In this document: piece after piece, positions 195-64,000 of the stretch
Layout of the letters: each line of letters opens with the position of its first letter
How positions within the stretch are numbered: the first letter of the stretch is position 1
Assembly (NCBI GenBank): GCA_031835245.2
Contig: JAVKOQ020000030.1
Coordinates: forward strand, 62,001 to 126,000
Length of the DNA stretch: 64,000 nucleotides
Direction of reading: 5' to 3'
DNA from: Balamuthia mandrillaris
Taxonomy: Eukaryota
Made by a program: the position numbers and the translations under genes
The notes under the pieces: model-generated
What the model was told of the DNA's origin: nothing
Databases searched by the model: none
Seen by the model: the letters and a program-made list of their open reading frames with translations, nothing else

Positions 195-1172
195 TTAATC
201 TTCGATTGTGGTGAAGAGGGTTCTGGGCATATGCACTAGAACGGAGAACAGGCCATCAGAAACACACTTGAACTTTTCCTTTACGCCTTCGCTGACAAAC
301 GCATCATCCGGAGCATATTGTGCTGAGAACACGCGTGTCCTATACCGGTAAACGGCTACGTGGACAGGTGGCCCAGCAGAAGGGCGTATGTCCTCTGTGC
401 CAGTAGCGAAACGGAGAGCAAGCTTTGGGCCTCGTGTCTTGAGGGATATGAGCCACCTGAGCAAATCATGTTGCTGGGGGTAGAAGTAAAACTTGTCCGT
501 GTGGGCGAACGGGTCCTGCTGCACCATCCTGTACTTTGTTGCTGCCTCCTTGTAAGCCTCCTTCATCTGTGCCTCCGAAAACAGTCCCGTGGGTTCTACC
601 ACTTCAGCAAGCTCCAATCCACTGATGAGAGGCAACTTGATGCGACCTAGCACCTTCTTCAAACATCCTCGCTCGAATCCCTCTTGTTGTGCCTGATGAA
701 GATACCAACGGTGAACCGCTTCAAAGACTTGCAGCTCTGACACCCCATCCAGTTTCGACTTCAGCACCTGAGACACTGCTTCTGGGCTTAACGACAGCCA
801 TTGTTGTTCTACCTGAGCATGATGTTGGCCTAACAGTTTCGCTCCACGAGTGTCCATGAAGCGACGCAGAGTATACAGAACTGCAGGGGCATGTTGGTGC
901 CGTGGGGGAGTTGAATGTAGGAAGTGCCTCTTTGAAGGAACCTTTCAGCATAGCACGGAAAACCGGAGAGCGCAGTGAAAGGATCAAATGACAGGCAAGC
1001 ACAGGGATCTTCTCCCGGCCTACGAGGAAGCGCACGTCCGCCAACTCAGGGTTGTCCACCAGCTGGGTGAGCGCTCGGCAGAGCGAGCGACCGCCTTGCT
1101 CTCCTTCGCGGTTGCTGGTCTCGTCCGCTGCATTCGTTTCACTCTTCTTTTCTTGGCGGCCATTTGTTCCAT
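195..1172 (-). pseudogene. BTB/POZ-BACK protein, frameshifted and internally deleted paralog of 2813-4030
   Basis: LVDNPELADVRFLVG...LSLRSPVFRAML (BTB N-half) joins HAPAVLYTLRRFMDTRG...EAVHRW...VEPTGLFSE (BACK-like) by a frame change near 900. About 100 codons present in the paralog are missing and there is no room for an intron. The ATG (MEQMAAKKRRV) is also out of frame with the BTB. Confidence 0.7.
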
Positions 1173-1205
1173 TTTCCTTCCTGGCTTTCGTGCGTGCCTG
1201 TGTTT

Positions 1206-1263
<58 letters not shown>

Positions 1264-1391
1264 CTCTCGCAAACCCAACTGGCAACTTGGCGAAAAGTTT
1301 TTCTGCAGAATTTTGGTCAATTGCCACGTCGACACAAATGCTGCCCTTGCCTATTGCTCTCTGCTGTTGAAAATATCACACGTATTTTTAA

Positions 1392-2812: not shown

Positions 2813-4030
2813 CTAACTCTCGTTTATTGGAAGAAGTGGCCAGGAATATGCACAAGAATAGTGTATCTCTTTGCCTTCGGAGAGCAATTTAGATCTAATC
2901 CCCAACCATACGGCAATAGGTGGATTCTGTTGGAGAGCGTTCCTATTACTACCAACCGTCTGTTGCAAAAGAACTGCAATTGGATGCCACCAAATTCTAT
3001 CTGACATGGAGTGTCCGAAGAAGTATATGTCCATGTTGTCACCCAGCATTCCCAGCTGGATATACCACTGTAGCTTGTTGTGAGAGTGGTGATTTGTGTT
3101 CAATACTTTCGCTCCCTTATGGAACGGATTCTCCGGCACAACAATCCTGACGTGAGTGGCAGCTATCTTGAAGGCCTCTTTAAGCTGCTTCTCAGAGAGC
3201 AAGCCTGTGGGTTCTACCACTTCCTCCAGCTCTGCACCACTCATCAACTGCGTCTTCACTCCATCCAAGACCCCTTCCGTCAGAGCCTCCTTTTGTTCTG
3301 ATTCTGGTCTTTGAAGCCACCAACGATGAACCGCTTTGAAGATTTCCACTTCAGCAATGCCCTCCAAGTCCGCCTTCAGTACCTCAGCCACCGCTTTTGC
3401 ACTGAGGGCAAGCCATTGTGCTTCCACAATTTCATCCGTTCCTCCAAGCAGTTCTACTGCATTTGGCGCCATGAACTGAAGGAGAAGAGCCACCAGGTCC
3501 GGAGCTACAGCAATGCTCACCTCCAATAATGAAAGCACGTTTCGAGTGGTGAGAAGTGCAGGCAGCATAGATAAGATACAGGGTTTAACACTAAAGATCA
3601 TGAAATGGTCTGCCGCTGCATACAAGTGAACGAGCTCTTCTCTGTTGATGCTTTGTTCGTCACTCTCTTCTGTTTCAGGAAGTTTGTCGGTGTAGACGTA
3701 GTGAAGAAGTATTCGAAAAGTAGTAGGGCGCATTTCTGGCAGCTTTACTTCTGTCATTACGCGCCGAGAAGAAGAAGAAGAACAAGAAGAAGAAGAAGAA
3801 GAAAAAGAAGAAGAAGAAGAAGAAGAAGAACAAGGTGACGACGCAAAAGTGTTAGAAGCCTCTTTGAAGTGGCCAACGAACATAGCGTTAAACACCGGGG
3901 AGCGAAGCGCTAAATGTCCTCGGTAGGCGTACATGGGCACTTCCTCAGGGCCGACGAGGAACCTCACGTCCGCCCACTCCTCATTGTCCACCAGCTTCGC
4001 CAGCACTTGGCTCAACGTTAGCCCCTCCAT
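2813..4030 (-). CDS. BTB/POZ-BACK domain protein (intronless, poly-Ser insertion)
   Basis: ADVRFLVG...HLALRSPVFNAMF...FRILLHYVYTD...LYAAADHF, then BACK-like EIFKAVHRW. ATG at 4030, TAG at 2813. Confidence 0.85.
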   Translation of the reverse strand: MEGLTLSQVLAKLVDNEEWADVRFLVGPEEVPMYAYRGHLALRSPVFNAMFVGHFKEASNTFASSPCSSSSSSSSFSSSSSSCSSSSSRRVMTEVKLPEMRPTTFRILLHYVYTDKLPETEESDEQSINREELVHLYAAADHFMIFSVKPCILSMLPALLTTRNVLSLLEVSIAVAPDLVALLLQFMAPNAVELLGGTDEIVEAQWLALSAKAVAEVLKADLEGIAEVEIFKAVHRWWLQRPESEQKEALTEGVLDGVKTQLMSGAELEEVVEPTGLLSEKQLKEAFKIAATHVRIVVPENPFHKGAKVLNTNHHSHNKLQWYIQLGMLGDNMDIYFFGHSMSDRIWWHPIAVLLQQTVGSNRNALQQNPPIAVWLGIRSKLLSEGKEIHYSCAYSWPLLPINES

Positions 4031-4086
4031 TTGCGTGCGGTGAGTATTAATTATTTTCTTTTTTGTGGACAAAAGAGAAAAAAGAG

Positions 4087-4263
4087 CACCTTCGTCGGGA
4101 TTCGAACCCGAGTCTCCGCGCACTGCCAAGTTTTTGCCTCAAGACATGGTTTCCCCCCATTAGCGGCTCCCTCTTCATCACCGTCAGAGGAGAAAGAAGG
4201 AGTAAAGCATGAAACAATGGGGGAAACAGATACGCGGCATGCTGCCAACTGCACCACAAAGGT
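4087..4263 (-). ncRNA. tRNA-like Pol III-type RNA with a 112-nt structured insert in place of the anticodon loop
   Basis: Acceptor stem ACCTTTG/CGAAGGT plus G73; D arm GTGC-AGTTGGCA-GCAT; anticodon stem CCGCG/CGCGG; variable loop AGAC; T arm TCGGG-TTCGAAT-CCCGA; T6 run 3 nt downstream (4078-4083). Confidence 0.8.
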
Positions 4264-4390
4264 TTTTGTTTTTTGAACAGTGTTCAGGATAATGCTTTCT
4301 TCACAAAGGCGATATATCAACAGAACGAGTTGGACAGAGAAACCATTATGGGTGAATTGTTCACCGAAAGGTGAGAAGAAGAAAAGAGGA

Positions 4391-4732
4391 TTAGAAGAGA
4401 GAGAGCGGAGGAGTAGGGGGCACAAAGTTGACGTCGGTGAGAAGACCCAAGTAGCCATCAAAGTATTGGAGAGTGGCGTTCCGTAAACTGAATCCTATTT
4501 TTCATCACAGAGAGTGTTAGCGAAAGCAAAGTTAAGGAAAATGAAAAGCAAAACGAAAAGATAAATACCAGCAACAGTGGGGAGAGTAAAGGCGTTCTCT
4601 TTTAAAAAAGTGTTGACGAAAGGATTGAGCACCGAGTTGAAAACAAAGTTGAGCAAGAATTGCATCAAAGAGATATCTATCTTTCCAACATATGATTTCT
4701 ATAATTGAAAATGAGAAATGAGAAATGTTGGG

Positions 4733-4852: not shown

Positions 4853-7305
4853 TGGATAAAGCAGAGAAGCAAAGGAGTGTGAAAAGTTACCGCCAAACGG
4901 CTCTTGAAAGACTCAAATTGAACGGCTCCGCTGATGGTATCATTGACAAGCGACATCTACAAAAAGTAACAAAAAACGCGATACAAATCATATAAGAAAA
5001 AAACCAACCTGAAAATAAACACGAAAGAATAGAAAAAATGAACAGAAACAACGGAAGAGCACGTACAGCAGCGGCAGCAGTGAGATTGACGTGAATGACC
5101 ATGGCTGGTGTGACGGTGCCGTTGGAAAGGTTGATGTTCATGGTTAGTGCGATTTGAGTGCTCAAGTTGATGCCTGTTCTGTTCACAGGAGCGCCTGTTG
5201 ATGGCTCTGTTGAAATAAACACGGCGTTATTAATAGCAGAGAAGGAAATGGAAACAGAACGCCGATCAAAATAATGAGAAGAAGACAGAATAGGAAATAT
5301 CAAAAAGCTCTGGAGAGAGTGAGAAAGAGGAATTCGTACTACTGTCTCCCAAGATGGTGACATCAGGAGGGGCAATAATGGCAAGATTGAAGAAAAACTC
5401 ATCATCAGGGAATGCCTTGTAGATAGAAGGAATGATGGACTTGAAGATGTTGGTGTTGAATTTAATTGGCAACCAGGAAGGAAGATCCGCGTTGGTAAGA
5501 TTGAAGGACAACATGCCAGTCTCAAACAAAGCATAGGCAAGAGAATCGAACACGAAATCGTTAACAATGATCTGTATCATAGCTGAAATAAAATAAATGA
5601 GAATAGAACAAAAAGTGTCATGAGTACAAAAAGCCTAACCATTGTTTAGAGTATTTGGAATAGGACGCGGGGGGAATGGGGCTGTCTTGTCTTGATAATC
5701 AATTTCAGCTGTTGTTGTACTGGTTAGCATGCTTCAAACAATAAATTTAAAAAGTGAGGATGATGAGAAAAACCTTTCAACGGAAGCGCCAAGAAATCAC
5801 TTGTAATGACCGGAGCACTGGCAAGCGCAAAGTTACCAAAGAAACCTGGAGGGAATGGCTCTGGCAATGGGTAGTGGCTCAAGTGCAGATTCACAATGGC
5901 TTGGTTGATAAGAGTTCCACTTTTTAACACCAAATACAGTTAGAGAAGAGAAAGGCAACAAAGGCTAAAAGCAAGCTTACATGTCGGTTTGAAGAGCATC
6001 GGTGACAGCATTGTTGAAAGCGGATGCGATCTGAGACTTGAAGAGACTGATGAGAGCGTTGTACAGCCAACTGTATCATTCCAACAAAATCAGTTAATAA
6101 AAATCCACGGCCAGAAAGAAAAGAGGGCAAAGATGCGTACTTCGGAATGAGACCTTGACCTTCAGTGATTGTTATGTCTGAAAAGATAAAAAAGGAGTAT
6201 TAGCTTCTTCTTCCCTAACAAACTTCTCATTTTCCTCTTGTCGGGGAAAAGCAAGGAAGAGACGTGTACCTAAAGTTCCCATGTCAATTGTGACAGAACT
6301 GATGGTAAAGTTGATATTGTCATTTAACATTCCGATGCCAATCGTCAGATCGAACGTGCCGCCAGAGTTTTTGATAGTGGCTTTGCCTTTTCCAGATGTA
6401 ATGTCCCTTTTGTTTGCACAGCGATGTTAGCAGAAAAAAAGGAAGAGAGAATCGGAGGGAGAAGGAGGAGGAAAGCAGAAAAAAGGACAAAGAAAAAGGA
6501 ATGATACCTTGGGCTTAACACTTTGGCGTCAGCAAGCGGTGCAGCCGCATCTTCATCACCATAGGTAGGGTAAGATTGAAGAAGCTGACTTTGTTCTTCG
6601 GACGAGAGGGAGAGCGACCAAGCCCAATCTGTCGTGAAGTCTCCAGTACCTCCGCTGATCTGTATGCGAAGACCTTGGTTGGGCACCAATGTGACTACAT
6701 CCTTCTCGAAGCCAATGTTCACCACCTTTATGAGACAGAGTTGTTTGATCAGTTGGACGCAAGGTAGTGAGGAGCAAGGAAGCGAGAAGCGAGAAGCGAG
6801 AAGCGAGAAGCGAGAAGCGAGAAGCGAGAAGCGAGAAGCGAGAAGCGAGAAGCGAGAAGCGAGAAGCGAGAAGCGAGAAGCGAGAAGCGAGAAGCGAGAA
6901 GCGAGAAGCGAGAAGCGGAAGGAAAAGGAGAGAAACAGAAGAGAAGTAGAAGAGGAAAGCGGAGTAAAGAGAAAGAGTGAAGAGAGGAGAGGGGAGAACG
7001 AGAAAGGAGAGGAGAAGCGAGACGAGGGAAGCAGAGAGCAACGAGGGAAAAAACCTTTAAGTTGGAAATGTTGTAATTCACGGTCAACCCGATCACCTTG
7101 GTGCTGCCAGCGATAGGAGGGACGTTGAACGACTTGGCGAACCCATCCACAACGGAAGGTCCCAGCTGCTGACGAAGGTAATCCACCAGCCTGCTGGTGA
7201 TGGCGAAGGAGAGACCCGCCCCCGTGGAGCCAACCTTGTTTGCACCTCCCTTTTGTTGTTGTGCAGCTGAAAGAGATTTAAAAAATGAGCAAAGGGAAAA
7301 GATCC

Positions 7306-7987: not shown

Positions 7988-9423
<1,436 letters not shown>

Positions 9424-30869: not shown

Positions 30870-33355
30870 TTAACCCAACATGCGGTGAAGCAGGCCACCT
30901 TTTGCGTCGCTGCTGTGAAAAGCAGGTAATATGGTATAGTAGAGAGGATGTATGCTGCTGTCTTTGTTTCTGTCGTTGCAATCTACGCGCCATTCATACT
31001 TCCACCTTTTTGTTTTGTTGTTGTAAAAGTTCAATATGAGGTGAGGGAAGAGTGGAGAGAGAGAAGAGAGAATGAGGCAAAAGGAAGGCGTGAAGAAAAA
31101 CGAACCGAAGAACTCTCCATGGCAAATCCACTCTTGCAATCTCTTTCAGGTCGGTATTAAAGTACTTAAACTGAACTCTCATTCCAAAAAAGTTGAACTT
31201 CTTTGCAAGCACTTTCTCCATTCCGTTTCGGTCACGGAAGATAAAAGTAGTATAAAAGCGATCCAAAAAGCGGAGAGCAGAAAGAAAAGAAGTTTCCTGT
31301 CTCAACTCTCCCAAAATGTTGTCTTTGCTGTCGGTAAAAGTGATCACCTCGGAGCAGGAAGCAGAAGTGGAAGAGGATTGTTGTCGTTCGTTCTCGTCAT
31401 AGTACGTCCGATGAGCTTTTAGCAAAAGGTTACCATCTGGATTGGAATATCTGTAAAGAAAAATAGAAGTAAGAAGGGTGTAGTAGAAGAACAAGACGAA
31501 CAAGAAGATCAACCACAACCACAACCACAACCACAACCACAACCACAACCACAACCACAACCACAACCACAACCACAACCACAACCACAACCACAACCAC
31601 AACCACAACCACAACCACAACCACAACCACAACCACAACCACAACCACAACCACAACCACAACCACAACCACAACCACAACCACAACCACAACCACAACC
31701 ACAACCACAACCACAACCACAACCACAACCACAACCACAAGAAGAAGAAGAAGAAGAACAAGAAGAAGAACAAGAAGAAGAACAAGAAGAACAAGAAGAA
31801 GGGCAAGAACAAGAACAGGAACAAGCACGAGCACAAGAACAAGAACAAGATCGAAGAACGAAGAACGAAGAACCAGAAAAACAAAAAGCCAATACTAAAC
31901 TAAAAAGATAAAACAGCCAACAGAAAAACAAAGATAACAAACCTCAAAACATTAGTCGCAGATTCCATAAGGCGTCCATGATACCCGTCCTCTCCAATAA
32001 CATCAAAGGAATGCCCATCCGTTATATTACCCGCTCCAAACCTCACACGCACCGCCACAGGCACCTCTGACAGAAGAAAGAATGAAGGAAAGGTCTCCTC
32101 TTCCAAGCTTTCCGCATGAGGAGTCCACCCTTTTGCTTTGTTCTCTCTTTCTCTCTCTTCTTCGCGCCTCCTCGCTTGTTGTTGTTGTAATAGCATTTGT
32201 CCCCACCGAAACATCTCGCGAAGGAATGCAGCGGGTCCGCTACCACTCGTGATGCCAGCGCCTGGTCCTCCAACGTTGCCGTGTACTTCTTTGGCAACGC
32301 GCGTTGCGTTTAAGGTTGCTTCAAAGAATTTAGACAACATTTGAAGAAGAGGATGGGAAGAGTAGTTGAGGTCTGATTGCTGGTCAGAGGAGAAGGGAGA
32401 GCGGCGACGTGAACGCCAGACAGTTTGAGTGGACTTGTGGTAGACGCGGCCAAACGGAGTGTCGTAAACTTCCCATCCGTTTGTGCCTTCTATTTTGCCC
32501 CTGTATGTTCCCTTTTTCGACAAACAGTTAGTTACAATCTTACTTCTGGCTGCTTGCTTTCTTCTTTCATTTTCTTCTTTTACTATGCGCATTCCTTTTT
32601 TTTTTTCCACACAAATGCGAAAAAAGTGAAGAAGAAACGATACCTGTTGTCTGGCTCTCCGTGTGATGTTCTCCATTTCCTTTTCCAACTCTCTGAAAAT
32701 AAAACTGTAATTTTGGCTGTACCACCGGAAAAAGTCGTCCACCTCTTGGTCTCTTTGTTGCTCTCTTTCTCGTTCTTCTCTTTCTCTTTCTCTCTGTTGC
32801 CGTTGTTGATATTGTTGGTATCTTTGATATTGCTGTCGTTGTCTTTGATAGTCACTATAATCCCAACTGGGTGATTGGTCCTCGTATTCATAGTAGTAGA
32901 ACGGGCCATAAGAGGAAGAACGTTGTGAGGAGGAAGAAGAGGGAGGAGAATAGGAGGTTCTTGTTCTGCCTTCACGAATTTCGTTGTAGGTTCGTCGTTT
33001 GGATTCATCTCGCAGAATCTTGTGAGAGATTGCGCGAGAAGAGAGAGAGAGAGAGAGAGAGAAGAGCGTGTACATGTGAGCAGAGAGGAAGAAGGAAGCA
33101 ACGCGAACGAAAGTAGGAGAAAATACCTCATAAGCATTAGTAACTTCCACGAATTTCTTTTGAGCAGAAGGATCGCCCTTGTTAAGATCAGGATGATACT
33201 GTTTCGCTTTCTGTCGACAGACAAGCACGCGTTAGAGAACGAAAAAATAGATGAAAGACGAGAGAAGGGACTAGGCATGAAAAGCAAAGGCCACAGCAAG
33301 CGGTGAGCACGGAAGAGAGAAGAGAGAAGAGAAGAGAAGCATAGAAGCAGAGACC

Positions 33356-42841: not shown

Positions 42842-45800
42842 ATGCAGTCGCGCTTTGTTTGGGGACTGCTGCCGGTTCTCCTTCTGAGCCTCGCCCTGGC
42901 CGCCACAGGTAACCCCTTGTTAAGGGTCATAAAAAAATAACAAAAAACTAAACTCTGATATCCATTTTCATTTTTTTTTAAACAAAACGATGCCATAGTC
43001 CTTGGGCAGGCAGCGGGAGATGATATCTACAACAGGAACTATGGTATCGGGGACGTGCGCGGCATCGGCCCCGGCAGAAAAAACGGAATACCTGCAGATG
43101 AGGGTCTGTACTCATGGCCCCTGTCCCTCTGTTATCTTGGCCAAGTCGATGGTGACCTTCACGCCATCGCCTCTGGCCTTGGAGGCGCTGGTAACATTTG
43201 TCTCTCCTTTTTTTTTTCCTGTTGTTTGGCTCTCTTGTCTTTTTTCTCTAACATTTGTTTTGTGTGCAGACACTTCGGGTGGAATGCTGAAGCTACTCCT
43301 CAACGACTCCATCGAGGTGGACAGTTATGAGGTCATCGGTTCTCCCTATGAGGCCTACCATTTTTTTTATGGCTTCACGATCGTTTCCTTGACGGACCTT
43401 AACTCTGACGGCAAACTAGAAGTTGCAGTTGTGGCTCCCTCCGACCAAGGCAGCACCTATGGTTTGTTTTTCTTTGCCCTCGCATCTTTCCAGCCTTGTC
43501 TTTGTTCCGCCGCATCGCCTTTGACCTTTTATTAACATAACAAAACAGCGTATATCTACTCCATGAACTCGGACGGCAGTTTGGAGGACGAGCCTCGCCT
43601 TATGCTGTCTCCCACTGAACCTCCGTTGAACCAATTCTCTCCCTTCTCTGAGCTGGACTACTCGGAATGGTATAGGAATGGTGATGATGTTCCTCATGAC
43701 CTGACGTGCGTTCCTCTTGTTGCTTTCTTATTTGTCCAATATGCTTTCTTCTTATCTTGGTTATTCCTTTCCATCCATCTCGGTATGCAAGTTACTTGGG
43801 CGACTTGGATGGGGACGGCGTGGGGGAGATTGTGCTCAGCGGTCCGCGAAGGACGAACAATTACAGAGGTGAGATCTACGTGGTCTATATGAATGCTGAC
43901 CTCACCATCAAGGACGTGAAGACCATCACTTCCTGCCACAACTGTACGCCGGATTATCCGGACTACGGAGACGGCTACGATGGGGGCAGCAGTTGGTGGT
44001 TTGAACGAGAGGTTGATGTTGAAGACGAGATGCATCCCGACTCCATCTTTTTTGGCTCCAGTGTTACAGGTACCTGGTTTTTGTCTGCTCACATCTCATC
44101 TTTCTCTCTCATTCTAAGCCTCCACCCAATACACAGGACTTGGAGATCTGGATGGTGACAACATTCCTGATCTGGCAGTAGGAATGGAAGGAGCTTATTC
44201 CTTTCCCAAAGGCGCCATCTTTATTCTGTTCCTCAACAGCAACGCGACGGTCAAAGCCATGCAAGAGATCTCCATTTTTGAAGAGAGCTCTGGGTTGAAC
44301 CTTCCCTACACTGTTAGTCCTTATGGTGGGGTGGAAGTTATCATTGGAAACAGCACCTACTTTTGGTCTGGTTTTGGCGACCACATCCGAAACATCGGAA
44401 ACGAAGGAGCTCTGACGGAGGCCGAGCGGTTCGGTCCTTCCATGGACTGGAACCACGACCAAGTTCCTGATCTTCTTGTCACCTGGGGATTTCCAAGTAA
44501 GCCGCCTTCCTTGGTTGTCTTTAGCTTGTTCTAAGTCGCATTCGTCTTTCGTTTTTTGTTGTCCTTAGCATTTGTTTGGTTGATGTTGTTGAACCCGAAT
44601 GGAACTGTGAAGGGACTTGTGGACTTAACGACACCTGAGCTGTACGGAGAGAAAGTATCCCCTGCAGCTGACTTGAACGGTGATAACATCCCCGATTTCA
44701 TGATAACCAATTCTCATGCAAGTATGTGCCCCGCGTTCCTGTTTTCCTCTCTTGCTCGTTCTCTCTTGCTCACCCACTTTGTTAACATTCTCTTCTATCA
44801 GTTTCTGGAGGACCAGGCACAATAGACATTTTGTTGATGAGCTCCATCACTGTCAATGTGACTTCCACCTCCTTGAACCTCTCTTCCATTGATGCCAGAA
44901 AACGACAAAGCACAGGGTCAGCAAGCTTCCTGGTGGAGGTGTCCTCTGCACCATGGGAAGAGATCGTGGTTCCATTTTCAGTGGAGAGCACCTCTGGAAT
45001 CGACCCCAACACCATCAGCGTTTCTGTGGACAGTCCTTTGACCTTCCTCGGCGAGACCACCTCTGCAGTCATCGAAGTTACTTTCGAGTACCCAGAACAG
45101 TCAACAGAGGAAGAAGGGTTGCGAGTGGTGCTGGAGCAACCCAGGGGTGCGTATCTTCAACAAGGCCAAGGCTCATCCTTCCTTGTCGTGAATGAGGTCG
45201 AAGAATCACCCCTACAAGCAAAAGCAGAGGAGGATGACAAAGTTGGAGCAGAAGTGATCGCTCCAGTGGTGGTGGTGGGTGTGTTGCTGGTGGTTCTTGT
45301 GGTGGGCATCATTGTGGCAGTGCTGTTGGTCCGTTCTCGTCGTGCTCGCAAGAACATGGCCACTCGAGAGATGGACATGGAAGAAGGCCAAACCCATTAT
45401 TATCAAGCATCTGCCCTGGGCATGAAAGACAAAGCAGAGACCAAAAGAAGAAAATCCACCAAGAAGAACAATGACAAGGGAATGCAGAACTGGTTCATTA
45501 ACCGCAAAGAATTGGAGTTCATCGAAGAAATTGGACAAGGGTACGTTCTCTCGCTCTCTCTTTTTCTCCTCTTGATGCTCACTCAAATGTCATATATTAG
45601 CGCATTCGGAGTGGTGTGGAAAGGAGCATGGAGACAAACAGAAGTGGCCATCAAGAAGCTTCACACCATGGATGACGAACAGCTTGATAGCTTCCAACAT
45701 GAGGCACAACTCATGAGGTTCACCTCTCTCCGTAATGGTTTTTCAAAACAAAAACACTAAAAAAAACGTACATATACCCACAGAAACCTGAGACCACACC

Positions 45801-51336: not shown

Positions 51337-54300
51337 ATGCAGTCACGTTTTGTTAGCAGGACGTTGTCGTTCCTCCTTCTGGGCCTGGTCCTTGCAGCCA
51401 CAGGTACCTCTTTCAAGTTTAGTGTTTTGGAGTTTGTTACCTTAAAAAAAATACCAAAACCGTTTTATTTTTGTTTAGTTAACGGGCAGGAAGAAGGAGA
51501 GAGCATCTACAACAGGAACTATGGCATCGGGGAGGTGCGTAACATCGGCCCCGGCAAGAACAACGGCATACCTGCAGCGGAGGACCTGTACATATGGCCA
51601 CAGTCCCCCATTTACCTCGGCAGAGTCGCCGGTGGCTCTCACGCCATTGCCACCGGTATCGGCAGCGTCGGTAAGGCTCGGGCCTGTTCTGTTTGTCTCC
51701 TGGATTTTTTTTTGTTTGTTTGTACTAAAGACTTTGCCCTCTTTGTTGAACAGACTATGACTATTCCGGCGGGGTTATGACCCTCCGTCTGAACGACTCC
51801 CTCCACGTGGAGAGTTATGAGTTCATGGCTTCGCCCTATGACGACTACTCACTTGACTTTGGTGAAAGCTACTTTCGATACGGCACCACGCTTGTACCCT
51901 TAACGGACCTCAACTCCGACGGGAAACTGGAAGTGGCTGTCGTGGCTCCCTCGGATGAACGCAGCAGTTATGGTTTGTTTTGTCGCCCGCTGTTTTTCCA
52001 TCCCATGAAACTCTCCATTCACCTTTCCTTGGAAAAACACGCAAAACAAAACAGCGTTCGTCTACTCCATGAACGCAGACGGCACCTTAGAGTCAGAGCC
52101 TCGCCTCACTCTGTCTCCCACTGAACCACCGTTGAACCAATTCCTTCCCTTCTCTGAGCTTGATGATGATGAATGGTACTATCCTGGCTCTGATGTACCT
52201 AATGACCTGACGTGCGTTCCCTCATCTTTCCTCTTACTTCTTTCTTCTTTCTTCTTACTTTTTTCTTCTTTCTTTATTGTTTTATCGTTCTCCTGTGTAC
52301 CCTTCTGTTTTGTGCTTAGTTATTTGGGAGACTTGGATGGAGACGGAGTGGGCGACATCGTGCTGAGCTGTCCCTGGCGAATCGGCAACACGCGAGGAGA
52401 AGTCTTTGTGGTCTACATGAATGATGACTTCACCATCAAGGACGTAAAGAGCATCTCGTCCTGTAGCAACTGCCCCTGGGGCGCTGCTAGACGTGGTTAT
52501 GAAAGAGAAGTCGATGTGGAAGACCAGATGCCTCCTGACTCCCGCGACTTTGGTTCCAGTATCACTGGTACATTCATTTACTACATCTCTCTCTTTCTCT
52601 CTCTCTCTCTCTCTTCTTTCCCTTACCACCACAAAACCAGGGCTAGGAGACCTGGATGGTGACAACATTCCCGACCTGGTAGTAGGAATGGAAGGAGCTC
52701 GTTTCTCTCAGGGCGCCATTTTCATTCTGTTCCTCAACCGCAATGCCACGGTCAAAGCCTTGCAAGAGATCTCCATTGTTGAAGAGAGCTCTGGGTTGAA
52801 CATTCCCTACACTGTTGATCCTTATGGTGGGGTGGAAGCTATCATTGGTAACAGCTCCTACTTTGTGTTCGGGTTTGGTGAACACGTGCGAAACATCGGA
52901 AACGAAGGAGCTCTGACGGAGGCCGAGCGGTTCGGTCCTTCCATGGACTGGAACCACGACCAAGTTCCTGATCTTCTTGTCACCTGGGGATTTCCAAGTA
53001 AGTTTAGCTTTCCCGTTGTTTGTCATTGCTTGCAAATGGTTTAATGCAGTCCTTGTTTCTTTTTCCAAAGAATTCGTTTGGTTGGTGTTGCTGAATCCAA
53101 ACGGAACTGTGAAGGGACTTGTGGACTTGTCCAGAACTGACCAAGGAATGATGTATGGTGAAGCAATTGTCCCTTCTGCCGACTTCAATGGAGATGAAAT
53201 CCCTGATTTTATGGTTTCTAATTCCCACGGTGGTACGTTCCTCACTTCTTCTCTCTTTTACTTGCTCTTCAAAGGTTCTTCTTATGCTTCTTCATCTGTT
53301 TCCTCATTCTTCCAATGTTCTCATATCTTAAATAAACTCTTTGTCATCAACAGATATAGGAGGACCAGGCACTATCGACATTTTGTTGATGAGCTCCATC
53401 ACGGTCAATGTGACCTCCACCTCCTTGAACCTCTCATCCATTGATGCCAGGAAACGACAAAGCACGGTGTCAGCAAGCTTCCTGGTGGAGGTGTCCTCTG
53501 CACCATGGGAAGAGATCGTGGTTCCATTTTCAGTGGAGAGCACCTCTGGAATCGACCCCAACACCATCAGCGTTTCTGTGGACAGTCCTTTGACCTTCCT
53601 CGGCGAGACCACCTCTGCAGTCATCGAAGTTACTTTCGGTTATCCAGGTACTTTTCTGTTTGTTCTTTGTTGTCGGCTCCTTCTCTCATACTGTTTTGCA
53701 ACATGTGCTCTCTACCTCAGAGAATTCAACAGAGGAAGAAGGTTTGCGAGTGGTGCTGGAGCAACCCAGGGGCGCGTATCTGCAACAAGGCCAAGGCTCA
53801 TCCTTCCTTGTCGTTAAAGAGATCGATGAACCTGTCGAACCCGAACAACAAAAAGGGTCCAGTGAAGATGAAGTGGGAGCAGAAGTGATCGCTCCAGTGG
53901 TGGTGGTGGGTGTGTTGCTGGTACTTCTTGTGGTGGCCATCGTTGTGGCAGTGCTGTTGGTGAGGTCTCGTCGTGCTCGCAAGAACATGGCCACTCGAGA
54001 GATGGACATGGAAGAAGGCCAAACCCAATATCAAGCATCTGCCCTGGGCAAGAAAAACAAAGAGGAGACAGGCGATAGAAGAACGTCTAGCAAGAAGAAG
54101 AACAATGACAAGGGAATGCAGAACTGGTTCATCAACAGAGAGGATTTGGAGTTCATCAAAGAGATCGGACAAGGGTTCGTTCTCTCGCTCTCCGTCCCCA
54201 TTTCTCTCCCTCTCTCTCCCTCGCTCTCTCTCCTCCCTCTCTCCCTTTCTCTCTCCCTCTCTCGCTCCCTCCTTTCCCTCTTGCTAGGGCTAACAGGAGG

Positions 54301-54725
54301 AATGTGTTGCAGAGCATTCGGAGTGGTGTGGAAAGGAGCATGGAGACAAACAGAAGTGGCCATCAAGAAGCTTCACACCATGGATGACGAGCAGCTTGCC
54401 AGTTTCCAACATGAAGCGCAACTCATGAGGTCCGCCTTTTCTTTGTTTTTTTTGTTTTTCTTTGTGGTTTTGTTCTTGCTTTTTATCTACCACAAAGGAG
54501 CACTTACACTTTAAAACAAAAAAATAAAAACAACTCACACACAACAGAAACCTGAGACCACACCCGAATGTGGTGCAGCTGATGGGATTGGTGGAAGAGG
54601 ATGGAATGCCGGAATGCATCGTGACCGAGTTCCTTGCCAACGGGGATCTCTTGTCTTATCTCCGCAAACAAGACCAATTGTCTGAAGAGAGCATGATCGC
54701 CATGGCCTTAGATGTCGCTGGTTTG

Positions 54726-62170: not shown

Positions 62171-64000
62171 GAGAAATACGAACAGCCTTCATTGCAGATT
62201 TTGACGGCAGCCTTCATGACGTGAGTATCACCGAATGGTTCCTCCCCCAACGTGACGATCTCCCACAAACAAATGCCGTAGCTATGAGACCATTTGTTTT
62301 GCATGAGCATGAGGCAAGAAACGAACAAAAACAGCGAAAACAAGCAAAAAACAAAACAAACCTCCAAACGTCGGACTTTTCAGAGTAAATGCTCTCTTGA
62401 ATGGCTTCGGGAGACATCCTGTTTCATGGGAGACAACAGGGATGAGTAAACAAAGCGCAACAAGGTAGAATACAGGCAAAACGAACAAGCACATTCAAAA
62501 AACAAAGCGAACCATTTCAAAGGGCCAACTTCCTGTTTGGTCTTCTGCTCTGCTCCTTGCAGCTTCAGCTTTCTTGACAACCCAAAGTCTGCATTATCCC
62601 GTTGTTGATGAGGACGTTTGCTTTAGCACATGAATGTGGCGGAACGGGAAGGGTTGTTTACCTGAAACTTTGATGTTCAAGTCTTCCGTCATCAGCAGGT
62701 TCCTGGCTGCCAAGTCTCTGTGCGTGATTCCTTCTGCATGCAAATGAGCCATTCCAGCTTCATTTTTGATGAGAAAAACAATCAATCCTTTTATCTCCTT
62801 TTATCAAGAGAGAGCGAAGAGAGAGAGAGAGAGAGAACAAACCGGCCACATCAAAGGCCATGGCGATCATGCTCTCTTCAGACAATTGGTCTTGTTTGCG
62901 GAGATAAGACAAGAGATCCCCGTTGGCAAGGAACTCGGTCACGATGCATTCCGGCATTCCATCCTCTTCCACCAATCCCATCAGCTGCACCACATTCGGG
63001 TGTGGTCTCAGGTTTCTGTTGTGTGTGAGTTGTTTTTATTTTTTTGTTTTAAAGTGTAAGTGCTCCTTTGTGGTAGATAAAAAGCAAGAACAAAACCACA
63101 AAGAAAAACAAAAAAAACAAAGAAAAGGCGGACCTCATGAGTTGCGCTTCATGTTGGAAACTGGCAAGCTGCTCGTCATCCATGGTGTGAAGCTTCTTGA
63201 TGGCCACTTCTGTTTGTCTCCATGCTCCTTTCCACACCACTCCGAATGCTCTGCAACACATTCCTCCCGTTAGCCCTGATACAAAAGAAAAGCAAATGAC
63301 AAAGAGGAGAGCGAGAGCGAGAGCGAACGAACCCTTGTCCAATCTCTTTGATGAACTCCAAATCCTCTCTGTTGATGAACCAGTTCTGCATTCCCTTGTC
63401 ATTGTTCTTCTTGGTGGATTTTCTTCGTTTTGTCTCCTCTTTGTTTTTCTTGCCCAGGGCAGATGCTTGATAATACTGGGTTTGGCCTTCTTCCATGTCC
63501 ATCTCTCGAGTGGCCATGTTCTTGCGAGCACGACGAGACCTCACCAACAGCACTGCCACAACGATGGCCACCACAAGAAGTACCAGCAACACACCCACCA
63601 CCACCACTGGAGCGATCACTTCTGCTCCCACTTCCTCATCCTCCTCTGCTTTTGCTTGTAAGGATGGAACCTCTTTAACGACAAGGAAGGATGAGCCTTG
63701 GCCTTGTTGCAGATACGCGCCCCTGGGTTGCTCCAGCACCACTCGCAAACCTTCTTCCTCTGTTGACTGTTCTGGGTACTCGAAAGTAACTTCGATGACT
63801 GCAGAGGTGGTCTCGCCGAGGAAGGTCAAGGGATTGGCCACAGAAACGCTGATGGTGTTGGGGTCGATTCCAGAGGTGCTCTCCACTGAAAATGGAACCA
63901 CGATCTCTTCCCATGGTGCAGAGGACACCTCCACCAGGAAGCTTGCTGACCCCGTGCTTTGTCGTTTCCTGGCCTCGCTGGATGGGAGGTTCAAGGAGGT
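61930..64000 (-). CDS. FG-GAP receptor kinase type B copy 3 (3' part; 5' end lies outside the window)
   Basis: Stalk, TM and kinase near-identical to B1/B2; ends PTFAEITKLLRTASS*. Confidence 0.85.

What the first reader, a model, noticed from the sequence alone, without database searches (positions are those of the whole stretch)
4087..4263. tRNA-scaffolded RNA: intact tRNA body carrying a 112-nt structured insert instead of an anticodon loop
Seen: all four tRNA stems pair, and A box (TGGTGCAGTTGG), B box (GGTTCGAATCC) and a T6 terminator are present. The anticodon stem extends (CCGCGTA/TGCGCGG, then CTG/CAG) into an insert with a long helix GTTTCCCCCATT/AATGGGGGGAAAC. Read as a canonical 105-nt intron (4226-4122), splicing would give the loop TA-TCT-GG, a nominal Arg(UCU) anticodon that lacks the invariant U33 and has G37, so it is unlikely to decode. 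Inference: the tRNA body works as promoter and processing scaffold, and the insert (possibly excised, linear or circular) is the functional part.
Basis: partly seen in the sequence, partly recalled or inferred. Interest (0 to 1): 0.8.

Follow-up and report, generated by a model that had tools for sequence, protein, structure and literature searches.

The report
Expressed tRNA-shaped gene with long insert
A transfer-RNA gene of a eukaryote carries 105 extra bases at the usual tRNA intron site, has several similar copies in the same genome and is transcribed with the insert still in it; cutting the insert out in the usual way would leave an anticodon loop that likely cannot read codons, so the RNA probably persists as a tRNA-shaped molecule rather than an ordinary adaptor.

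Summary
On the minus strand, 4263..4087 is a complete tRNA body with A box, B box and a T6 run. A 105-nt insert (4226..4122) sits at the canonical 37/38 intron site.

It is not a lone oddity. DNA contigs of the same organism hold at least four versions, each carrying an insert. Flanks diverge at the tRNA ends, and the downstream flanks seen carry their own T-runs.

Raw RNA-seq reads from three runs cover only 4108-4243, as short fragments that cross both exon-insert borders. No exon-exon joint and no circle joint was reported.

The centre of the insert is not conserved between copies. The tRNA body, the anticodon-loop letters and the insert's base are conserved.

Only the canonical cut sites have a splice-site-like structure. 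They would give the loop UAUCUGG (A33, G37 next to UCU), which breaks universal rules.

Best reading (0.45): a tRNA-derived polymerase-III RNA family that stays insert-bearing or is poorly spliced, not a normal decoder. Main rival (0.33): an ordinary long-intron tRNA-Arg(UCU).

Insert length lies within the known range (6-133 nt).

The parts
4227..4263 (-). 5' exon, tRNA positions 1-37. It holds the acceptor 5' strand (4263-4257), U8 G9, the D arm (4254-4239), G26 (4238), the anticodon-stem 5' strand (4237-4233) and loop letters U32 A33 U34 C35 U36 G37 (4232-4227).
   Evidence: Sequence and helix table. Identical in an X1 DNA unitig. No RNA variant of 5% or more at 4223-4237.
4245..4256 (-). 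A box TGGTGCAGTTGG, the internal polymerase III promoter element by consensus.
   Evidence: Read. The consensus itself is recalled, not tested.
4122..4226 (-). 105-nt insert at the canonical 37/38 intron site.
   Evidence: This is the only cut-site pair with a proximal pair (U32-A4124) and 3-nt bulges.
4215..4226 (-). 5' strand of the basal helix of the insert (UUUCCCCCAUUG).
Evidence: Fold.
4149..4162 (-). Conserved in all paralogs seen apart from position 4154.
4163..4214 (-). Variable CU-rich/GA-rich apical part of the insert. It includes a chance CUGA-N3-UGAUGA motif at 4187-4175.
   Evidence: A paralog contig has 8 listed substitutions between 4171 and 4198 plus indels at 4181, 4186 and 4190. 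Other paralogs diverge completely beyond 4167/4170.
4126..4149 (-). 3' segment of the insert (CCAUGUCUUGAGGCAAAAACUUGG), a weak hairpin. Paralogs differ only at 4128, 4129 and 4137.
4087..4121 (-). 3' exon, positions 38-73. It holds G38, the anticodon-stem 3' strand (4120-4116), the 4-nt variable loop, the T arm (4111-4095), the acceptor 3' strand (4094-4088) and discriminator G4087.
4098..4108 (-). B box GGTTCGAATCC.
   Evidence: The only exact match in the window.
4078..4083 (-). T6 run, a predicted polymerase III terminator 3 nt after the discriminator.
   Evidence: Paralog downstream flanks carry T10 and T8 runs (loose ends).
4025..4089 (-). 65-nt GT..AG interval skipped in one long contig of run X3. 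Its donor lies inside the tRNA acceptor 3' strand. This belongs to a read-through polymerase II transcript, not to the tRNA-type RNA.
   Evidence: table 5 and record 11.

Best explanation
This is one copy of a several-copy family of tRNA genes with polymerase-III-type promoter boxes and T-run terminators that carry a roughly 105-base insert at the usual tRNA intron site and are transcribed with the insert in place; the RNA likely stays a tRNA-shaped, insert-bearing molecule, or is spliced only poorly, rather than becoming a normal codon-reading tRNA.

Shown:
- The cloverleaf, the promoter boxes and the terminator.
- At least four sequence versions in the genome, all with an insert.
- Short RNA fragments that cross both exon-insert borders.
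- Conservation of the tRNA body, of the 'anticodon loop' letters and of the base of the insert, against a fast-changing insert centre and unrelated flanks.

Inferred:
- The internal A and B boxes drive polymerase III, and the tRNA body gives end-processing and stability.
- The letters that would be the anticodon loop are selected as one strand of a continuous extension of the anticodon stem: U32.G, A33-U, bulged U34, C35-G, U36-A, G37-C. This buries the 3' cut site.
- The endonuclease therefore acts poorly or not at all.
- Whatever is spliced has loop UAUCUGG and is unlikely to decode.

The job of the insert-bearing RNA is not known. Its conserved candidates are the basal helix and the 3' segment of the insert, 4170-4126.
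For: (1) Intact tRNA body with A box, B box and T6. ARAGORN finds 1 real hit against 0 in 30 shuffles.

(2) It is a family. In X1 DNA contigs, 4 listed versions overlap 4088-4142:
- the window version (records 1 and 2);
- record 3, 7 differences;
- record 4, 6 differences;
- record 5, covering 4113-4237, with 14 differences and 4 gaps.
There are also 5'-side pieces: record 6 (4212-4265, 4 differences) and record 8 (4238-4285, 0 differences and 1 gap). Three further records are not shown.
Summed word depth is 253-326 over the exons and insert ends, 143-160 over the insert centre and 31-39 in the flanks. As a rough reading this suggests about 7-9 copies, though the tool warns that depth is not copy number.
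Flanks diverge at 4088/4080 and 4265/4285. Two downstream loose ends carry T10 and T8 runs.

(3) Expression, from 3 raw-read RNA runs:
- 270, 380 and 83 reads were laid from about 3-5% of each run.
- Depth reaches about 217, 306 and 64 (both directions summed) in 4142-4175.
- Depth is 0 over 3700-4073 and at most about 5 per direction upstream.
- Adapters abut the fragments, so the inserts are shorter than 150 nt.
- Fragment ends pile up at 4107 (G53) and 4236 (C28), inside the exons.
- The only joint reported is the mRNA intron 4493-4568.

(4) All subfamilies are transcribed. At 4154 the paralog letter is 190 of 251 reads in X16 and 244 of 348 in X17. By depth it is about 74% of the DNA, if records 3 and 4 also carry it, which is an inference.

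(5) The loop letters are fixed. There is no variant of 5% or more at 4223-4237 in RNA. None is listed there in record 5, but table 3 lists only differences about 40 nt or more from a contig end, so 4199-4237 of that record is not directly seen.

(6) The loop breaks two rules.
- A33 replaces the near-universal U33. That rule is recalled knowledge.
- G37 lies next to U36. [quoted passage not shown]

(7) The splice-competent fold is costly. It needs the proximal pair U32-A4124 and both 3-nt bulges free. It costs -53.8 against -65.1 kcal/mol for the extended helix. In Drosophila reporters, over-tight anticodon-intron helices reduce splicing (PMC6614914, passages read).

(8) There are paired changes in a paralog.
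- 4198 with 4171 turns U.G into A-U. The double change gives -67.2, the singles -64.0 and -62.8, and the window sequence -66.7 kcal/mol.
Against: - Standard RNA-seq libraries rarely capture 72-nt, heavily modified mature tRNAs. The lack of spliced reads therefore says little, and unspliced precursors are expected in such data.
- The canonical sites do have a proximal pair, 3-nt bulges and 3 of 4 central pairs. A real intron would have these too.
- Insert length is inside the known range of 6-133 nt (PMC4090602, section 5).
- Conserved exons, semi-conserved intron ends and a variable intron centre is also the usual pattern of ordinary tRNA gene families.
- The 4222/4154 double change is compensatory in only one of two possible registers. 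It lowers the predicted stability (-61.7 against -66.7 kcal/mol).
- Linking those changes to one paralog rests on equal read counts and on unlisted contig differences.
- No function for the retained RNA is shown.
- No orthologue from another species was available.
Confidence: 0.45

Rival explanations
1. It is an ordinary nuclear tRNA-Arg(UCU) gene family with an unusually long canonical intron. The precursor is spliced at 37/38 by the tRNA splicing endonuclease, and the product decodes AGA despite A33 and G37.
For: - The tRNA body and tertiary letters are perfect.
- The canonical site has the proximal pair U32-A4124, 3-nt bulges and an outer stem with 5 of 5 pairs.
- Intron length is within 6-133 nt (PMC4090602, section 5).
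- Multi-copy, with unrelated flanks and its own terminators.
- Precursor reads are expected in RNA-seq.
- G73 and the D arm resemble eukaryotic Arg-UCU tRNAs. This comparison is recalled, not tested.
Against: - A33 is present in every copy seen.
- G37 stands where ANN decoders carry t6A37 (PMC8887486, abstract).
- The U32.G38 and A33-U pairings favour a fold that buries the 3' cut site by about 11 kcal/mol.
- No spliced joint was reported. This is weak evidence.
Confidence: 0.33
2. It is a transcribed relic: a family of tRNA pseudogenes or a SINE-like tRNA-derived repeat. The copies still fire polymerase III, but the RNA has no use.
For: - Aberrant anticodon loop.
- Several dispersed copies.
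- Two copies are identical over 4087-4267. The unitig depth there is 69 against 31-39 in the flanks.
- An earlier scan note on a fungal look-alike reached this kind of verdict. It was not tested here.
Against: - No A-rich or simple-repeat tail. Homology stops at the tRNA ends and each copy has its own trailer and T-run.
- Acceptor pairing across a 105-nt insert and all tertiary letters are kept.
- The exons and the insert base are far better conserved than the insert centre and the flanks. Neutral decay would not produce that contrast.
Confidence: 0.1
3. One reading: the tRNA body is only a promoter and processing scaffold, and the excised insert, linear or circular, is the functional product, as with tricRNAs.
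For: - The insert is structured.
- Its basal helix and 3' segment are conserved among paralogs.
- Long metazoan tRNA introns are known to give stable circles (PMC4536317, abstract in a search listing).
Against: - Reads cross both borders, and fragment ends lie in the exons at 4107 and 4236.
- No back-joint was reported at about 60-100x cover of the insert.
- The insert centre is not conserved. The CUGA-N3-UGAUGA motif is destroyed in a paralog.
- Rfam gives no match.
Confidence: 0.07
4. Non-canonical splicing restores a normal loop. Examples are ARAGORN's Cys(GCA), cut at 33/34, or Gln(CUG). Either uses a shifted or 6-bp anticodon stem.
For:
- The loops AU-GCA-GU and AU-CUG-GU would have U33 and a purine at 37.
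Against: - None of these cut pairs has a bulge-helix-bulge. Outer-helix and central-helix pairs are mostly absent.
- They need 2 nt between the D and anticodon stems, or a 6-bp stem.
- G73 does not fit Cys or Gln identity in eukaryotes. This rule is recalled.
- ARAGORN scores of all spliced candidates are alike, 110-124.
Confidence: 0.05

Closest known systems
Nuclear intron-containing tRNA genes of eukaryotes (canonical 37/38 intron, cut by the Sen/TSEN endonuclease)
   Same: - Same insert position.
- Internal A and B boxes and a T-run.
- Proximal pair with a 3-nt bulge at the 3' site, and 6 nt from position 32 to the end of the 5' exon.
- A multi-copy family whose introns diverge faster than its exons.
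- Length inside 6-133 nt (PMC4090602, section 5; PMC6614914, passages).
   Different: - The loop left after excision has A33 and G37 next to UCU.
- The most stable fold continues the anticodon stem through the cut site.
- No spliced product was seen.
Drosophila tRNA-Tyr long introns and tricRNAs (PMC4536317; PMC6614914)
   Same: - A structured intron of about 100 nt in a tRNA gene.
- A helix at the base of the intron that matters for processing.
   Different: - No circular joint in three RNA runs.
- The host tRNA there is a normal decoder.
- Here the centre of the insert is not conserved.
Engineered 'tRNA scaffold' RNAs (anticodon arm replaced by a cargo helix; recalled, no paper read here)
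   Same: Same architecture: an intact acceptor, D and T body with the anticodon stem continued into a foreign helix.
   Different: - Those are man-made.
- Here it is a natural multi-copy family.
- No cargo function has been identified.
tRNA-like non-decoding RNAs (mascRNA/MALAT1, herpesvirus tRNA-miRNA units, the trypanosomatid SRP tRNA-like RNA; recalled)
   Same: tRNA-shaped RNAs that use tRNA processing or promoters without decoding.
   Different: - None has a complete cloverleaf interrupted at 37/38 by a 105-nt three-way junction.
- The Rfam mascRNA match here is chance-level: 15.5 bits against a gathering score of 42.5, E = 2.8.
tRNA-derived SINEs
   Same: tRNA-related polymerase III promoter and several dispersed copies.
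   Different: - The B box and the acceptor 3' strand lie after the insert and close a full cloverleaf.
- There is no tail.
- Each copy has its own trailer and T-run.

Membership tests
Eukaryotic nuclear tRNA gene with canonical intron | Cloverleaf with 7/4/5/5-bp stems and the conserved tertiary letters | tested here: met
   ARAGORN with introns allowed gives 1 hit against 0 in 30 shuffles.
Eukaryotic nuclear tRNA gene with canonical intron | Internal A and B boxes and a downstream T-run | tested here: met
   A box 4256-4245, B box 4108-4098, T6 4083-4078. Paralogs carry T10 and T8 runs.
Eukaryotic nuclear tRNA gene with canonical intron | Intron between 37 and 38, with a proximal (A-I) pair and a 3-nt bulge at the 3' site | tested here: met
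   U32-A4124, bulge G4123 U4122 | G4121, and 3 of 4 central pairs. This fold is about 11 kcal/mol worse than the extended helix.
Eukaryotic nuclear tRNA gene with canonical intron | Mature 7-nt anticodon loop with U33 and a fitting purine at 37 | tested here: not met
   The loop is UAUCUGG, with A33 and with G37 beside U36. It is the same in all copies seen.
Eukaryotic nuclear tRNA gene with canonical intron | Intron is removed in vivo and the product is charged and used in translation | tested here: inconclusive
   No exon-exon joint in 3 raw-read RNA runs. Such libraries seldom capture mature tRNA. Charging and decoding are not testable here.
Rfam tRNA (RF00005) | Match at gathering score | tested here: not met
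   0 matches, and none at E up to 10 in 3900-4450. This is expected, because the model does not span a 105-nt insert. The spliced form could not be given to the tool.
Non-canonical (bulge-helix-bulge) tRNA introns, as in archaea, red algae and nucleomorphs | Two 3-nt bulges around a 4-bp helix at cut sites that yield a sensible tRNA | tested here: not met
   The best strict motifs lie inside the insert and give no tRNA. The cuts that would restore U33 have no motif.
tricRNA-producing tRNA gene | Circular intron joint in RNA | tested here: not met
   No back-joint reported at about 60-100x cover of the insert. These are not RNase R or small-RNA libraries, so the test is weak.
tRNA-derived SINE | tRNA-related head, unrelated body, A-rich or repeat tail, target-site duplications | tested here: not met
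   The cloverleaf closes after the insert. Flanks diverge at 4088/4080 and 4265/4285, and T-runs rather than tails follow.
Box C/D guide RNA inside a tRNA intron (archaeal tRNA-Trp type) | Conserved C/D and C'/D' boxes | tested here: not met
   There is only an internal CUGA-N3-UGAUGA at 4187-4175 and no terminal boxes. In the paralog it is destroyed by changes at 4176, 4178, 4185 and 4186. Rfam gives no significant match.

The most novel reading that the evidence does not exclude
A natural 'tRNA scaffold': a conserved, multi-copy family of polymerase III RNAs in a protist. A complete tRNA body carries a three-way-junction arm in place of the anticodon loop. The former anticodon letters are fixed as one strand of the extended stem. 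The RNA is never, or only rarely, spliced, and it acts as a stable tRNA-shaped non-coding RNA. It might, for example, use tRNA processing, export or synthetase binding for a job outside decoding.
Probability: 0.4. Interest if true: 0.75.

Novelty: new variant of a known kind. Interest (0 to 1): 0.55.

Why it matters
U33 is one of the most constant letters in biology. Here a gene family keeps a perfect tRNA body, its own polymerase III signals and an A33 'loop' in every copy seen, and it is expressed.

That leaves two possibilities. Either it is a decoder that breaks the U-turn rule, or it is a natural tRNA-shaped RNA whose anticodon arm has been turned into something else. Both would interest tRNA biologists.

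The case is cheap to settle with a Northern blot and a tRNA census of the genome.

If instead it proves to be an ordinary long-intron tRNA, it still shows two things. Pre-tRNAs with roughly 100-nt introns can dominate the tRNA signal in standard RNA-seq. And default tRNA finders miss such genes: the tool's ARAGORN run and Rfam both returned nothing.

Tried and rejected
- No whole genome is held for this window. A genome-wide tRNA census and direct reading of the paralogs were therefore impossible.
- The look-up of sequencing runs: no RNA holder is listed. The RNA evidence comes only from laying raw-read runs X16-X18.
- Organism B runs X14 and X15 cover only positions above 4309/4336, the 3' end of the upstream gene. 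They have no cover of the tRNA gene, so they give no cross-species information.
- X10 contigs do not cover the gene.
- The metagenome scan with the 3'-exon pattern gave 1 locus, L001. It is an unrelated tRNA-like gene.
- The genome-contig scan with the conserved insert segment gave 0 matches. The viral-contig scan with the 5' exon gave 0 matches.
- The window holds no second copy of any part of the gene. Self-BLAST gave only matches of 18 nt or less.
- Earlier scan notes hold nothing for this genome or this sequence.
- The protein atlas, tried for a rough taxon, failed twice. The taxon was left undetermined, and 'amoeba' is not confirmed here.
- ARAGORN scores of 55 programmatically spliced candidates were all 110-124. 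They could not pick a splice site.
- The hammerhead and box C/D ideas were dropped. Rfam gave no hit and the motif is not conserved.
- An A-rich 12-mer both upstream (about 4276-4264) and downstream (about 4062-4050) was considered as a target-site duplication. It was rejected because the near-identical second copy shares 4080-4285, which does not fit those bounds.
- Literature searches found no paper describing such a family. These five word searches do not show that none exists.

Full report
**What is there**

On the minus strand, 4263..4087 folds into a complete tRNA.
- Acceptor stem: 7 bp.
- D stem: 4 bp with an 8-nt loop.
- Anticodon stem: CCGCG/CGCGG.
- Variable loop: 4 nt.
- T stem: 5 bp with loop UUCGAAU.
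- Discriminator: G.

All the usual tertiary-contact letters are present. The A box (4256-4245), the B box (4108-4098, the only exact match in the window) and a T6 run (4083-4078) are in place.

Between positions 37 and 38 lie 105 nt (4226..4122). The default tRNA finder and Rfam see nothing. ARAGORN with introns allowed finds the gene, and finds none in 30 dinucleotide shuffles of the window.

**It is a gene family, not a single oddity**

No genome is held for this window, so I used public runs. In DNA contigs of run X1:
- A unitig equals 4087-4267 exactly, at about twice the depth of the flanking unitigs (69 against 31-39).
- Further contigs match 4088-4142 with 6 and 7 differences.
- One contig matches 4113-4237 with 14 differences and 4 gaps.
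- One contig matches 4212-4265 with 4 differences.
- One contig matches 4238-4285 with 1 gap.
- Three more records are not shown.

Summed depth is 253-326 over the exons and insert ends, 143-160 over the insert centre and 31-39 in the flanks. The tool warns that this is not a copy number. As a rough guide it suggests 7-9 copies, about half of them with an alignable insert centre.

Similarity stops at the tRNA ends. Two different downstream flanks carry T10 and T8 runs. That is the signature of independent polymerase-III-type genes. It is not the signature of a SINE (no tail) or of segmental duplication.

A33 is not an error. The DNA unitig and the RNA reads agree.

**Expression**

Three raw-read RNA runs were laid, about 3-5% of each run. 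They gave 270, 380 and 83 reads.
- Almost all reads lie within 4108-4243.
- The downstream BTB gene has depth 0 in the part laid (3700-4073).
- The upstream gene has depth of about 5 or less per direction.
- Adapters abut the fragments, so they come from short RNAs, not from read-through transcripts.
- Many fragments end at 4107 (G53) and 4236 (C28), inside the exons. They therefore derive from insert-containing molecules, not from free insert.
- These ends lie next to G26 and in front of A58. That would fit reverse-transcription blocks at the usual m2,2G26 and m1A58, which is only a guess.
- No exon-exon joint and no back-joint was reported. The only joint is an mRNA intron at 4493-4568.
- Most reads are 90-95% alike and leave the window's sequence behind 4167/4170, so they come from paralogs.
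- The share of the paralog letter at 4154 is 76% in X16 and 70% in X17. This is close to its share of DNA depth, about 74% if records 3 and 4 carry it. All subfamilies therefore seem to be transcribed.

**What is conserved**

Conserved:
- The tRNA body.
- The letters 4223-4237, which include the would-be anticodon loop.
- The 5' strand of the basal helix.
- The 3' 49 nt of the insert, 4170-4122. Paralogs differ there only at 4128, 4129, 4137 and 4154.

Not conserved: the centre of the insert.
- One paralog has eight substitutions and three indels in 4171-4198.
- Others are unalignable there.
- A tempting CUGA-N3-UGAUGA motif at the tip (4187-4175) is destroyed in the paralog.

Two double changes in that paralog keep pairs.
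- 4198/4171 turns U.G into A-U. It is energetically compensatory.

This is modest support for the helices. It argues against a sequence-specific function of the insert's centre.

**Where could it be cut?**

I scored every cut pair for the bulge-helix-bulge geometry. I checked that geometry against the Drosophila rules: an invariant 3-nt bulge at the 3' site, and 6 nt from the proximal pair to the 5' exon end (PMC6614914, passages).

Only the canonical pair (5' exon ending at 4227, 3' exon starting at 4121) has all of these:
- a 5-of-5 outer stem;
- a proximal pair, U32-A4124;
- both bulges;
- 3 of 4 central pairs.

ARAGORN's Cys(GCA) solution, and every other cut that would restore U33, has no such support. 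Each also needs a shifted or 6-bp anticodon stem.

Canonical excision gives the loop UAUCUGG.
- It has A33 in place of U33. The U33 rule is recalled as near-universal.
- It has G37 next to U36. ANN decoders carry t6A on A37 (PMC8887486, abstract).

The splice-competent fold is about 11 kcal/mol worse than the fold in which U32.G4121, A33-U4122, C35-G4123, U36-A4124 and G37-C4125 continue the anticodon stem and bury the 3' site. Over-tight anticodon-intron helices impair splicing in reporters (PMC6614914, passages).

**Reading**

The pattern has three parts: selection on a polymerase III unit and on a tRNA body, fixed but rule-breaking 'loop' letters that pair with the insert, and insert-bearing RNA in cells.

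I think this most likely marks a tRNA-derived RNA family that stays insert-bearing or is spliced poorly, and that is not a normal decoder (0.45).

The main rival is an ordinary long-intron tRNA-Arg(UCU) (0.33). The insert length is inside the known 6-133 nt range (PMC4090602, section 5). Precursor reads are expected. Mature tRNAs are invisible to these libraries.

Less likely readings:
- A functionless relic family (0.10).
- Non-canonical splicing (0.05).

**Surroundings**

- The gene lies about 80 nt downstream of the end of a BPI/LBP-like gene (Pfam; RNA contig end at 4345).
- It lies 57 nt upstream of the ATG of a BTB/BACK gene.
- In run X3 only one record was laid and no paralog contigs appeared, so the run behaves like poly(A) RNA. 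There, a 2344-nt contig runs from the upstream gene through the whole tRNA gene. It then skips 4025-4089 (GT..AG) into codon 3 of the BTB reading frame.
- This is a read-through polymerase II transcript that uses a donor inside the tRNA's acceptor strand. It is a side observation and is not the source of the short reads in X16-X18.

**Limits**

- There were no orthologues, no small-RNA or tRNA-seq data and no genome-wide tRNA set.
- Paralog sequences are known only through difference tables.
- The taxon was not established.

Noticed in passing
window 4025-4089 and 4089-4400 (minus strand): A 2344-nt contig of run X3 reads from the upstream gene through the whole tRNA gene. It then skips 65 nt (GT..AG, with the donor inside the tRNA acceptor 3' strand) into codon 3 of the BTB reading frame, removing its ATG. 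X3 is labelled 'DNA?' but behaves like poly(A) RNA: one record was laid and no paralog contigs appeared.
   Followed up: partly
window 4175-4187 (minus strand): CUGA-CGG-UGAUGA at the tip of the insert hairpin looks like a box D'/C' K-loop. It is destroyed in the close paralog and there are no terminal boxes, so it is probably chance.
   Followed up: yes
window 195-1335 and 2813-4030 (minus strand): Two neighbouring BTB/BACK-type genes with similar C-terminal halves, a tandem duplication. Only the second has the tRNA-type gene in front of it.
   Followed up: no
window 44831-45760, 53660-54514, 63176-64000: Three paralogous receptor-kinase-like genes. Each has an extracellular part, a transmembrane stretch and a kinase start, and each is interrupted by short (CT)n-rich introns.
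   Followed up: no
window-wide, e.g. 6556-7186, 8092-8914, 30994-31884: Many (CT)n, (CAG)n-like and other microsatellites lie in introns and coding low-complexity runs. The CU-rich centre of the tRNA insert resembles this background.
   Followed up: no
L001 272-435: An unrelated metagenome contig holds another tRNA-like gene. Its two halves are separated by an insert of roughly 80-110 nt. ARAGORN calls it Trp(CCA) with an 81-nt intron and an odd variable arm.
   Followed up: partly
window 4107 and 4236: RNA-seq fragment ends pile up at G53 and C28 of the tRNA body. No read covers positions 1-20 or 54-73, although these are identical in several copies. This may reflect reverse-transcription blocks at modified G26 and A58.
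   Followed up: no
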